NCBI RefSeq assembly: GCF_056746865.1
Contig: NZ_CM163382.1
Strand: one strand, 5' to 3'
DNA length: 64,000 bases
The stretch's first letter is position 1; each line of letters starts with the position of its first letter. Position numbers: made by a program. Shown here in pieces: positions 15,001 to 18,000 of this stretch.

Positions 15001-18000
15001 TATTTAATATTGTTAAACCCTGATAATCGCTCCGGTTATTTCCGGGATAAATGTACTACCGCAGTTACTATCATAGCCCCGACAATAAAACTTGCCGGGG
15101 CTTTTTTGACGCTATTAATGACTTTCTTTTTCGCGTAAACGCCAGGCGTGTAATAACGGTTCGGTATAACCGTTTGGCTGTTTCACGCCGAGGAAGATTA
15201 AATCGCTGGCAGCTTTAAAAGCACACGAGTTAGCGAAATTCCCCGCCATCGGACGATAAGCCGGATCGCCAGCGTTTTGCTGATCAACCACTTTCGCCAT
15301 ATTCTCCAGCGACGCCTGCACCTGTTCTTTGGTCAGAATACCGTGACGTAACCAGTTGGCGATATGCTGGCTGGAGATACGCAGCGTTGCGCGGTCTTCC
15401 ATCAACGCCACATTGTGAATATCCGGCACTTTTGAACAACCAATCCCCTGCTCCACCCAGCGCACCACGTACCCCAGAATCCCCTGCACGTTGTTATCCA
15501 GCTCTTGTTGGATCTCTTGCGCCGACCAGTTAGCGTTTTCAGCAACCGGAATAGTCAGCAGATCGTCCAGCAGCGGTTCAAATTCAGCATTGAACTCGGT
15601 CTGGGCAATGTTGGCTTGTACGCTCTGTACGTTGGTTTGGTGGTAGTGCAGCGCATGGAGCGTAGCAGCGGTTGGTGACGGAACCCAGGCTGTGTTTGCC
15701 CCGGCACGCAGTTGGTCGCCCTTCTGGCTGTACATGTCTGCCATCAGGTCCGGCATTGCCCACATGCCTTTACCAATTTGCGCTTTACCGCGCAGCCCAC
15801 AGAACAGACCGGAAAGCACGTTATTACGCTCGTAGGCTTTGATCCAAGGCGTCGATTTCATCTGATTTTTACGCAGCATCGGGCCAGCTTCCATCACCGA
15901 ATGCATTTCATCGCCGGTACGGTCGAGGAAACCGGTATTGATGAACGCCACGCGGTTGCGCGCCTGAGCGATACAGCTACGCAAGTTCAGCGAGGTCCGA
16001 CGTTCTTCATCCATAATGCCCATTTTCAGGGTATTCGGTGCCATACCGAGCATTGTCTCAATGCGGGTAAACAGTTTGTTGGCGAACGCCACTTCCTGCG
16101 GACCGTGCATTTTCGGTTTCACAATATAGACGCTGCCAGTGCGCGAGTTTTTCTGCACTTTTAAATCATAGAGGGCAATCGCGCCAGTCATGACGCCATC
16201 AAGAATGCCTTCCGGGATTTCATTGCCTTCGCTGTCCCAAATCACAGGAATGGTCATCAAATGACCCACGTTGCGGATAAACAGCAGCGAGCGTCCGTGC
16301 AGAGAAATTTCAGAGCCATCGGCGGCGGTGTAATGACGATCGTCATTCAGTTTACGCACGATTTGCCGACCGTTTTTCTCCATTTTCTCTTGCAGAGTCC
16401 CCTGCATCAGGCCCAGCAGGTTGCGGTACAGCAGGATTTTATCTTCCGCATCAACCGCCGCGACCGAATCTTCGCAGTCGAGAATGGTACTGATAGCAGC
16501 TTCGACGATAACATCGTTGATGTGCGCCGGATCGTCTTTGCCAATCCGCCCATTGGCATCGATTTGCAGCTCAATATGCAGGCCGTTATTTTTCAGCAAA
16601 ATGCAGGTCGGCGCAGCGGCATCGCCACGGTAACCGACAAACTGTGCTGGAGTACGTAACGTGGTTTCTTTACCATTTTTCAACTGGATGCGTAATTGTT
16701 TATCAACCACCTTAAACGCCACCACATCCTGATAGCTGCCGTTTTCCAGCGGTAGAGATTCATCGAGGAAACGCCGAACCCAGGCGATAACCTGCTCACC
16801 GCGTTGCGGATCGTAGCCGCTGACCATCGCCCCTTCCTGCGGGATGATGTCGCTGCCGTATAACGCATCGTACAGTGAGCCCCAGCGAGCGTTCGCCGCG
16901 TTCAGCGCGTAGCGGGCGTTCATTGCCGGAACCACCAGCTGCGGCCCCGCCTGGCTGGTGATTTCGCTGTCAATGCCCGTGGTTTCCACCGTCACGCGCT
17001 CCGGTTGCGGCACCAGGTAGCCCAGTTCACGCAGGAAAGATTTATAGGCCGCTTTATCTTTTACCGGCCCCGGATTGCTGCGATGCCACTCATCAAGCGC
17101 TGCCTGAATGCGATCGCGTTCTGCCAGCAACTGACGATTTTCTGGTGCCAGATCATGAACGATCTCATCAAAATTGCGCCAGAACGCCGCAGCGTCCAGC
17201 CCTGTTCCCGGTAAAACTTCTTCATCCACAAAACGTTTAAAATTGGCGTCAATGCGTAAACGGCTCTGGGTTATGGTTTGACTCATTGTTTATCTCCTCG
17301 TTTTCGCTTATTTCGCCAACACCGCTGCTGCCGCTTTCGCGACCTGCGCATCCTGTGCTCCGGTTAAACCAGAAACGCCCACGGCACCAATAATTTGCCC
17401 ATCCACAACAACCGGTACGCCGCCTTCCAGCGACGTTAATAACGGCGCAGTCACGAACGCGGTACGTCCGTTGTTCACCATCTCTTCATAGCCCTTAGTT
17501 TCACGACGCCCCAGCGCGGCGGTACGCGCTTTCTCCTGGGAGATATAAGCCGCAATCGGCGCGCAATCGTCCATGCGACTTAACGCCAGCAGATGACCGC
17601 CGTCATCGGCAACAGCAATGGAAACAGACCAGTTATTTTTCTGCGCCTCTTCCTGACCTGCGGCAATAATTGCACTCGCCATTTGCTGGCTAAGAATGAC
17701 TTTAGTTTTCATTTTGTTATTCCTTTTCAAGGGCTTGTTCTACAATTTCAATCCAGTGACGCACAGAGGTACGACCGGCGCTCGCCAGATGCGTCTGGCA
17801 ACCAATGTTGGCGGTGACGATCATTTCCGGTTTGCCGCTTTCCAGCGCATTCATTTTGTTATCCCGCAGCTGGCGTGCCAGATCGGGATGCGTTAACGCA
17901 TATGTTCCCGCTGAACCGCAGCACAGATGGCTGTCGGGAACGTCCGTTAAGGTAAATCCAAGACGAAGCAACACTTTTTCCACTTCGCCGTTCAGCTTTT

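What the first reader, a model, noticed from the sequence alone, without database searches (positions are those of the whole stretch)
15073..15110. Plus-strand terminator-like hairpin between glcB and glcA
GCCCCG-ACAATAAAACTTG-CGGGGC followed by TTTTTT lies in the glcB-glcA spacer, oriented as a plus-strand intrinsic terminator although both flanking genes are on the minus strand. It could block antisense transcription into the glc operon, stabilise a processed 3' end, or be a relic REP-like element.
Basis: seen in the sequence. Interest (0 to 1): 0.2.

Follow-up and report, generated by a model that had tools for sequence, protein, structure and literature searches.

The report
Two-faced hairpin ending glcB message
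A conserved hairpin just after the E. coli malate synthase gene glcB marks where published maps place the end of the glcB message, and on the other strand it looks like a textbook terminator for antisense RNA; it is an ordinary kind of element.

Summary
The hairpin is real: window 15075-15102 plus T6 at 15102-15107, 12 nt after the glcB stop codon, in the 354-nt glcB-glcA spacer of E. coli. It folds far better than shuffles. It is single-copy and intact in 4,539 of 4,541 E. coli genomes that carry this flank. It is kept, with pair-preserving changes, in E. albertii, two unnamed lineages and Raoultella/Klebsiella.

The + strand does have canonical terminator anatomy, and the T-run is conserved. 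But the RNA 3' ends mapped by two published methods (Term-seq and SEnd-seq) lie on the minus strand, 4-5 nt past the stem. No + strand end is listed.

On the minus strand the stem is stronger (11 bp) and has no U-tract. That matches the known class of protective 3' stem-loops, so the hairpin defines and stabilises the glcB-ending message inside the glcDEFGBA operon.

The + strand face sits 15 nt after the Rfam sRNA C0719. It probably stops weak antisense transcription from entering glcB, but this is inferred only. REP-like origin is rejected.

Verdict: an ordinary, known kind of element; low interest. One side note: the whole spacer is more conserved than silent sites in glcB.

The parts
15075..15102 (.). 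The hairpin. On the minus-strand RNA it is an 11-bp uninterrupted stem (including one G.U) with a 6-nt loop. On the + strand RNA it is 7 bp, an A/C mismatch, then 3 bp.
   Evidence: dG -21.1 (minus) and -15.2 (plus), z -4.7 and -3.6. RNAalifold recovers it as a consensus helix across 8 copies.
15102..15107 (+). T6 run immediately 3' of the stem on the + strand. It is the A-run 5' of the stem in the glcB mRNA.
   Evidence: It is 5-7 long in all eight diverged copies. A T6/T7 length polymorphism is common within E. coli.
15070..15071 (-). [quoted passage not shown]
   Evidence: Adams et al. 2021 Term-seq: 3121590 (-), LB OD 2.0. Ju et al. 2019 SEnd-seq transcript unit 3121589-3125148 (-), as tabulated in PMC10667835. 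Coordinate mapping.
15115..17286 (-). glcB (malate synthase G). Its stop codon lies 12 nt upstream of the hairpin in the mRNA sense.
14761..15114 (-). The 354-nt glcB-glcA spacer inside the glcDEFGBA operon. It is more conserved than glcB four-fold degenerate sites.
   Evidence: The operon is described as one polycistronic unit in PMC3265435 and PMC10272880.
14839..15060 (+). Rfam C0719 (RF00117) candidate sRNA, antisense to the glc mRNA. Its array-defined end is 15 nt upstream of the hairpin.
   Evidence: 299 bits. It also hits the E. albertii and 89%-lineage spacers. It is not annotated in the current NC_000913.3 and is very weakly expressed.
13078..14760 (-). glcA (glycolate permease), the downstream gene whose transcription has to pass the hairpin.
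   Evidence: No promoter-like site was found on the minus strand of the spacer.

Best explanation
The hairpin is the 3'-end element of the glcB-ending message of the glc operon, and it has a second face on the opposite strand.

SHOWN. Read on the minus strand it forms an 11-bp stem that starts 12 nt after the glcB stop codon. Published Term-seq and SEnd-seq 3' ends lie 4-5 nt past its base, in late-growth LB culture.

INFERRED. No U-tract follows the stem on that strand in any lineage, so it is unlikely to be an efficient intrinsic terminator there. RNA polymerase probably continues into the spacer and glcA. Molecules that are cleaved or terminated further downstream are then trimmed back by 3'-5' exonucleases (PNPase, RNase II) until they stall at the stem. 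This leaves a stable glcDEFGB mRNA and proportionally less permease (glcA) message.

INFERRED. The same DNA read on the + strand is a canonical intrinsic terminator (stem plus U6) with a conserved T-run, 15 nt after the antisense RNA C0719. It probably stops the weak antisense transcription that arises in the spacer before it enters glcB. That makes the site a two-faced, bidirectional-type element.
For: - Minus-strand 3' ends come from two independent methods, at window 15071 and 15070 (mapping).
- No other dominant 3' end is listed in the spacer or after glcA.
- The minus-strand stem is stronger: -21.1 vs -15.2 kcal/mol.
- The minus-strand tail is U-poor, with nT 1.6 and d = -5.0. The + strand has nT 4.29 and d = +0.53.
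- Dar & Sorek 2018 describe this class: precise steady-state ends immediately downstream of stable stem-loops that lack a U-tract, made by PNPase/RNase II trimming.
- The hairpin is kept in 8 diverged copies with pair-preserving changes. Pair 8 occurs as G.U, U.G, G-C and A-U, and Raoultella has a paired C/G insertion.
- Strand-discriminating wobble pairs favour the mRNA sense in E. coli, the 89% lineage and Raoultella BIGb0138 (two pairs).
- The T-run is 5-7 long in every copy, and C0719 ends 15 nt upstream.
- glcDEFGBA is described as one polycistronic unit, and no minus-strand promoter-like site lies in the spacer.
Against: - No + strand 3' end at the T-run appears in the Adams tables for three conditions.
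- C0719 is barely expressed, has been dropped from the current MG1655 annotation, and no start site was found in one TSS dataset.
- The strand asymmetry is not uniform. E. albertii folds better on the + strand (-19.4 vs -14.9), and R. planticola and K. quasipneumoniae fold equally on both. Whole-spacer z-scores do not separate the strands.
- Nothing here separates true termination from trimming on the minus strand.
- Dar & Sorek note that protective stem-loops typically lack an upstream A-tract, and this one has a conserved A-run.
- The mRNA-sense spacer is not clearly C-rich/G-poor (C/G 0.8-1.4), so a Rho loading site is not evident.
- Read-through into glcA was not measured.
Confidence: 0.6

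Rival explanations
1. The main function is on the + strand. The hairpin is the Rho-independent terminator of the C0719 sRNA (or of other antisense transcripts), and the minus-strand 3' end is an incidental by-product, because any stable stem stalls exonucleases.
For: - Canonical anatomy exists only on the + strand: stem plus T6, d = +0.53.
- The T-run is conserved at 5-7 in all eight copies although no U-tract exists on the other strand.
- C0719 (Rfam, 299 bits) ends 15 nt upstream and otherwise lacks a terminator.
- The C0719 part of the spacer is under constraint: 95% identity vs 72% at silent sites against E. albertii.
- E. albertii's changes favour the + strand fold.
Against: - No + strand 3' end is listed in Term-seq for three conditions.
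- C0719 is very weakly expressed and has been removed from the MG1655 annotation.
- Most strand-discriminating substitutions weaken the + strand stem, leaving A.C mismatches in E. coli, the 89% lineage and Raoultella BIGb0138.
- The Raoultella group keeps the hairpin and T-run but has no C0719 match.
Confidence: 0.15
2. On the minus strand it is a genuine transcription stop: a weak intrinsic terminator, or a collision- or pause-driven bidirectional terminator of the Ju et al. type. In that case glcDEFGB is the main transcript, and glcA is expressed only from residual read-through or from its own unrecognised promoter in the spacer.
For: - The SEnd-seq-derived unit lists glcF-glcG-glcB without glcA.
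- The hairpin end is the only dominant 3' end in the region, and none is listed after glcA.
- The described bidirectional terminators encode hairpins that pause polymerase and need not resemble intrinsic terminators.
- An A-run upstream and a stem is the layout expected of a two-way site.
Against: - The minus-strand tail is U-poor (d = -5.0).
- The flanking protein genes are co-directional rather than convergent, and the only converging partner is the barely expressed C0719.
- The literature treats glcDEFGBA as one polycistronic unit.
- No promoter-like site lies on the minus strand of the spacer, and no start site was found there.
Confidence: 0.2
3. It is a relic of a REP-like or other repeated palindromic element with no function of its own.
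For: It is a GC-rich palindrome in an intergenic spacer. An IS5-family element has inserted right next to it in strain PEC408.
Against: - It is single-copy: median 1 and highest 2 places per genome.
- It is intact in 4,539 of 4,541 genomes.
- Its position after the glcB stop codon is conserved out to Raoultella/Klebsiella, with pair-preserving substitutions and a paired insertion.
- RNA 3' ends map to it.
Confidence: 0.03

Closest known systems
Protective 3' stem-loops at steady-state ends of Rho-dependent or processed E. coli transcripts (Dar & Sorek 2018, PMC6061677)
   Same: A stable stem-loop directly upstream of a precise steady-state 3' end, with no U-rich tract after it, lying just downstream of a coding region.
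   Different: This one has a conserved A-run upstream, which that class typically lacks. It lies inside an operon rather than at its end. Dependence on Rho or on PNPase/RNase II was not tested here.
Intercistronic mRNA-stabilising hairpins that set gene ratios within operons, such as the REP sequences between malE and malF (Newbury et al. 1987; recalled from my own knowledge, not retrieved here)
   Same: A stable hairpin between an abundantly needed upstream gene and a membrane-protein gene downstream in one operon. The expected effect is more upstream message than downstream message.
   Different: It is not a REP element (single-copy). The effect on the glcB:glcA ratio has not been measured.
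Bidirectional terminators between convergent transcription units (Ju et al. 2019; Wang et al. preprint 10.1101/2022.10.23.513370)
   Same: One hairpin is usable on both strands, with an A-run on one side and a T-run on the other, and a precise 3' end sits at the hairpin.
   Different: The flanking protein genes are co-directional. The only converging transcript is the weak candidate sRNA C0719. Only one of the two expected 3' ends is documented.
Canonical Rho-independent (intrinsic) terminator, as at the 3' end of sRNA genes
   Same: On the + strand it has a GC stem plus U6 and a positive discriminant score, and it lies 15 nt after the Rfam C0719 match.
   Different: The stem is interrupted by an A/C mismatch on that strand in most E. 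coli genomes. No RNA end has been mapped there, and the hairpin lies outside the Rfam model.

Membership tests
Intrinsic (Rho-independent) terminator, + strand | GC-rich stem-loop immediately followed by a U-tract | tested here: met
   7 bp, a mismatch, then 3 bp; -15.2 kcal/mol; followed by U6. nT 4.29 and d = +0.53. Ranked 8th of 124 T-runs in the window.
Intrinsic (Rho-independent) terminator, + strand | RNA 3' ends mapping in the U-tract on that strand | tested here: inconclusive
   No + strand end at 31216xx appears in the Adams et al. curated tables for three conditions. However, the + strand transcript is barely expressed, and other 3'-end datasets were not available.
Intrinsic (Rho-independent) terminator, minus strand | U-tract immediately 3' of the stem | tested here: not met
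   The tail is UAUGAUAGUAACUGC, with nT 1.6 and d = -5.0. No lineage has a U-rich tail on this strand.
Protective 3' stem-loop of processed or Rho-terminated transcripts (Dar & Sorek 2018) | Precise steady-state 3' end immediately downstream of an energetically stable stem-loop that is not followed by U-rich sequence | tested here: met
   Ends at window 15071 and 15070 lie 4-5 nt past an 11-bp stem of -21.1 kcal/mol with a U-poor tail.
Protective 3' stem-loop of processed or Rho-terminated transcripts (Dar & Sorek 2018) | Longer 3' tails appear when PNPase or RNase II is removed; termination or cleavage occurs downstream | not testable with these tools
   This needs RNA-seq of pnp and rnb mutants under glc-inducing conditions. 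The Adams Rho-region table has no entry here, but it was made at LB OD 0.5, a condition under which their Term-seq recorded no glcB end.
Bidirectional terminator between convergent units (Ju et al. 2019) | Located between convergently transcribed units | tested here: inconclusive
   glcB and glcA are co-directional. The only converging unit is the candidate sRNA C0719.
Bidirectional terminator between convergent units (Ju et al. 2019) | Overlapping RNA 3' ends on both strands at the element | tested here: not met
   Only minus-strand ends are recorded. The original Ju et al. tables could not be read.
REP/BIME repeated palindromes | Many dispersed copies per genome | tested here: not met
   Median 1 and highest 2 places per E. 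coli genome, for both the 501-nt and the 81-nt query.
Rfam RF00117 (C0719 sRNA) | The sequence lies within the family model | tested here: not met
   The full-length model match is 14839-15060, and the hairpin starts at 15075.

The most novel reading that the evidence does not exclude
The whole 354-nt glcB-glcA spacer, hairpin included, could be a conserved regulatory module that decides how much expression passes from the enzyme genes to the permease gene glcA. It is more conserved than silent sites of the flanking genes. It contains a block invariant out to Raoultella that begins with an ATG and a short 12-36 codon reading frame, and it overlaps the antisense RNA C0719. The hairpin would be the gate of a conditional attenuator or leader-peptide system, not merely a passive 3'-end stabiliser.
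Probability: 0.15. Interest if true: 0.45.

Novelty: new member of a known kind. Interest (0 to 1): 0.2.

Why it matters
The finding corrects which strand matters. An element that reads as a 'wrong-way' terminator is, by the published maps, the end of the glcB message inside the glycolate operon. It illustrates how a single hairpin can serve both strands.

In practice it would explain how E. coli could make more glycolate and glyoxylate enzymes than permease from one promoter. It also flags the spacer as a constrained region worth a targeted experiment. It does not change any general principle.

Tried and rejected
- **Cross-species search.** It returned only E. coli plus relatives of about 75% identity (Pseudomonas, Burkholderiales) with no orthologous spacer. 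I obtained diverged copies through protein homologs and their contigs instead.
- **Strand-of-selection test from G.U versus A.C asymmetry.** It leans towards the mRNA sense but is not uniform, because E. albertii goes the other way. It is reported as suggestive only.
- **Whole-spacer folding.** z = -2.3 (minus) versus -1.6 (plus) on the same interval, which does not discriminate.
- **RNAalifold on the spacer.** It recovers the hairpin. The other helices rest on three sequence groups and a weak alignment, so I did not rely on them.
- **Literature and data not available.** Supplements were not held for Dar & Sorek, Choe et al. and Grunberger et al.. The guessed PMC ids for Ju et al. 2019, Thomason et al. 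2015 and Tjaden et al. 2002, and the DOI for Nunez et al. 2001, were not held. The SMRT-Cappable-seq and Kim et al. TSS supplements have no entry for this region.
- **REP-like relic.** Rejected, because the element is single-copy.
- **Small ORF in the spacer.** No database record and no family match. It is kept only as a side note.
- **Rho loading site in the spacer.** The C/G ratio of 0.8-1.4 gives no clear signal.

Full report
**What is there.** The window is E. coli: 4,543 of 5,426 complete genomes match this stretch, most at 99% identity or more. Window coordinate + 3,106,519 gives the NC_000913.3 coordinate. glcB occupies 15115-17286 and glcA 13078-14760, both on the minus strand, with 354 nt between them.

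At 15075-15102 lies the palindrome AGCCCCG-A-CAA-TAAAAC-TTG-C-CGGGGCT, followed by T6 at 15102-15107.

On the + strand the RNA folds into 7 bp, an A/C mismatch and 3 more bp (-15.2 kcal/mol, z -3.6). On the minus strand the mismatch becomes a G.U pair and the stem runs 11 bp without interruption (-21.1 kcal/mol, z -4.7, 0 of 200 shuffles as good).

**Is it more than chance?** Yes. I scanned every T5+ run on both strands of the window with my own implementation of the d'Aubenton-Carafa discriminant. The site ranks 8th of 124 and is one of about five with a strong stem.

It is single-copy. It matched in 4,541 E. coli genomes, with at least 80% of the 81-nt query covered in 4,539, and 2,646 are identical over the 81 nt around it.

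Variants seen within E. coli:
- The commonest is T6 to T7 in the run.
- One variant (EC7518) changes C15095 to T, which makes the odd pair Watson-Crick on both strands.
- One strain (AST217) has lost the 3' arm and the T-run through a 12-nt deletion.

**Which strand?** The + strand has the textbook terminator layout (nT 4.29, d = +0.53). The minus strand has a U-poor tail, UAUGAUAGUAA (nT 1.6, d = -5.0).

Published RNA-end maps point the other way:
- Adams et al. 2021 (Term-seq) list a dominant 3' end at 3121590 on the minus strand (window 15071), four nucleotides past the stem. It is classed as the primary 3' end of glcB and as antisense to C0719. It appears only in the LB OD 2.0 sheet, and no + strand end at 31216xx appears in any of the three conditions.
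- A table built on the SEnd-seq transcript units of Ju et al. 2019 lists a minus-strand unit 3121589-3125148 carrying glcF, glcG and glcB. This is an independent method, and its end is one nucleotide away.
- No dominant end is listed after glcA or elsewhere in the spacer.

**What is on the + strand?** Rfam's C0719 (RF00117) matches 14839-15060 full-length at 299 bits, ending 15 nt before the hairpin. C0719 is a microarray-era candidate sRNA. It is no longer annotated in the current MG1655 RefSeq record. In a strand-specific RNA-seq survey it is very weakly expressed and rises only in the transition and stationary phases. Its overexpression had no biofilm phenotype. One transposon insertion at the site affected group II intron retrohoming. 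No start site for it, or for glcA, was found in one TSS dataset, and the consensus scan found no promoter in the spacer. By eye there is an extended -10-like TGATATACT at 14792-14800 on the + strand, which I did not test.

**Comparative evidence.** The genome-representative scan gave no orthologous spacer outside E. coli, so I fetched contigs encoding GlcB homologs:
- E. albertii (96% protein identity; glcA reduced to an 87-aa remnant)
- an unnamed lineage at 89% (two copies)
- an E. coli-like lineage with an A7 run
- Raoultella planticola, Raoultella sp. BIGb0138 and Klebsiella quasipneumoniae (81%)

All keep a 330-400-nt spacer with the hairpin shortly after the glcB stop codon.

The stem is maintained through pair-preserving change. 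Pair 8 occurs as G.U, U.G, G-C and, in one E. coli strain, A-U. The Raoultella group carries one extra C on one arm and one extra G on the other.

| Copy | Hairpin dG, mRNA sense | Hairpin dG, opposite strand |
|---|---|---|
| E. coli | -20.1 | -14.7 |
| E. albertii | -14.9 | -19.4 |
| 89% lineage (L085) | -13.9 | -12.7 |
| 89% lineage (L090) | -18.4 | -16.4 |
| R. planticola / K. quasipneumoniae | -23.7 | -23.8 |
| Raoultella BIGb0138 | -19.2 | -13.7 |

These values (kcal/mol) are. Substitutions that discriminate between strands mostly keep the mRNA-sense stem and break the opposite one. E. albertii is the exception, so I treat this as suggestive and not decisive.

The A-run in the mRNA sense, which is the T-run on the window + strand, is 5-7 long in every copy. 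No copy has a U-rich tail in the mRNA sense.

**Mechanism.** The minus-strand face fits the class defined by Dar & Sorek 2018. They describe precise steady-state 3' ends immediately downstream of stable stem-loops that are not followed by uridines, and they show these arise when transcripts ending further downstream are trimmed by PNPase and RNase II until the stem stops them.

The glc genes are described as one polycistronic unit, glcDEFGBA, so the hairpin is intra-operonic. The likely consequence is a stable glcDEFGB message and proportionally less glcA message. This is the logic long known for intercistronic hairpins such as those of the mal operon (my own knowledge, not retrieved here).

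Whether some polymerases actually stop at the hairpin cannot be decided with these data. That could happen through weak intrinsic termination, or through the pause and collision mechanism proposed for bidirectional terminators. I keep this as a rival.

The + strand face is inferred from anatomy, from the conserved T-run and from its position after C0719. It would stop antisense transcription from the spacer before it enters glcB. This reading best explains the conserved A/T-run, which Dar & Sorek say protective stem-loops normally lack. It has no direct support, because no + strand end has been mapped.

**Comparison with known kinds.** The element works like a protective 3' stem-loop on one strand and like an intrinsic terminator on the other.
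- It meets the sequence and end-position criteria of the protective stem-loop class.
- It fails the U-tract criterion for an intrinsic terminator on the minus strand.
- It meets the sequence criteria but lacks the mapped end for an intrinsic terminator on the + strand.
- It does not meet the 'ends on both strands, between convergent units' criteria of the Ju et al. bidirectional terminators.
- It is not a REP element, and it lies outside the Rfam C0719 model.

**Novelty and verdict.** The 3' end is already in published supplementary tables and C0719 is in Rfam. What I found no description of in the papers I could search is the reading of this hairpin as a conserved, two-faced element. It is a new member of well-known kinds, and interest is low (0.2).

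The more interesting lead is the spacer as a whole. It is 94.6% identical between E. coli and E. albertii, against 72% at glcB four-fold degenerate sites and about 82% in the neighbouring intergenic DNA. Against the 89% lineage the figures are 70-79% versus 52%. It also holds a block invariant out to Raoultella that begins a short reading frame in the mRNA sense.

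Noticed in passing
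window 14761-15114: The glcB-glcA spacer is more conserved than silent sites of glcB and than the neighbouring intergenic DNA. E. coli vs E. albertii: 94.6-94.9% versus 72% at four-fold sites and about 82% in the adjacent region. Versus the 89% lineage: 70-79% against 52%. Something in it is under purifying selection.
   Followed up: partly
window 14854-14964 (minus strand): A 36-codon ORF in the mRNA sense (MDILTILCACVCGTETLTRYTCYARGSNCVSGVLLL). Its ATG and first ~12 codons lie in the only spacer block invariant out to Raoultella, where the frame stops after 12 codons. Both E. albertii differences are synonymous third positions. The 89% lineage has a 2-nt deletion that shifts the frame. There is no Shine-Dalgarno sequence, no database record and no family match.
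   Followed up: partly
window 13040-13070 (minus strand): glcA is also followed by a strong 12-bp hairpin with no U-tract (AAGCCGGATGAT...ATCATCCGGCTT, then CATTTACATT; d = -7.6). It starts 7 nt after the stop codon. No 3' end is listed there in the Adams tables.
   Followed up: partly
L098 (E. coli AST217), equivalent to window 15096-15107: One genome of 4,541 carries a 12-nt deletion that removes the hairpin's 3' arm (+ strand) and the T-run. It is a natural knock-out that could be used for experiments.
   Followed up: yes
L002 (E. coli PEC408), junction at window ~15068: An IS5-family element (ISKpn26) is inserted a few bases from the hairpin. The spacer and glcA have been replaced, and a type II Zorya anti-phage system lies next to it. 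The hairpin itself is retained.
   Followed up: no
L084 (E. albertii) 5526-5789: glcA is reduced to an 87-aa remnant in this E. albertii genome, yet the spacer upstream of it is still 95% identical to E. coli.
   Followed up: no
window 15115-17286 (glcB) and loci L005-L083: Outside Escherichia and one Raoultella/Klebsiella cluster (81%), the nearest GlcB proteins are only about 68-75% identical and come from Pseudomonas, Stutzerimonas and Burkholderiales. This patchy distribution in Enterobacteriaceae hints at horizontal acquisition of the glc cluster.
   Followed up: no
window 15102-15107: A T6/T7 length polymorphism of the run appears to be the commonest variation. 1,894 of 4,541 genomes fall in the 95-99% identity band, and most listed examples of these span 82 nt instead of 81.
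   Followed up: partly
window 14792-14800 (+ strand): TGATATACT reads as an extended -10 promoter element about 40 nt upstream of the Rfam C0719 start. It is partly kept in Raoultella (TGGTATGCT). This is my reading of the sequence only. It was not picked up by the consensus scan and is not supported by the one TSS dataset checked.
   Followed up: no
window ~18629 (NC_000913.3 3125148, minus strand): The SEnd-seq-derived transcript unit that ends at the hairpin begins inside glcF, not at the glcD promoter. This suggests an internal 5' end from processing or an internal promoter. Adams et al. also list two strong 3' ends inside glcD.
   Followed up: no
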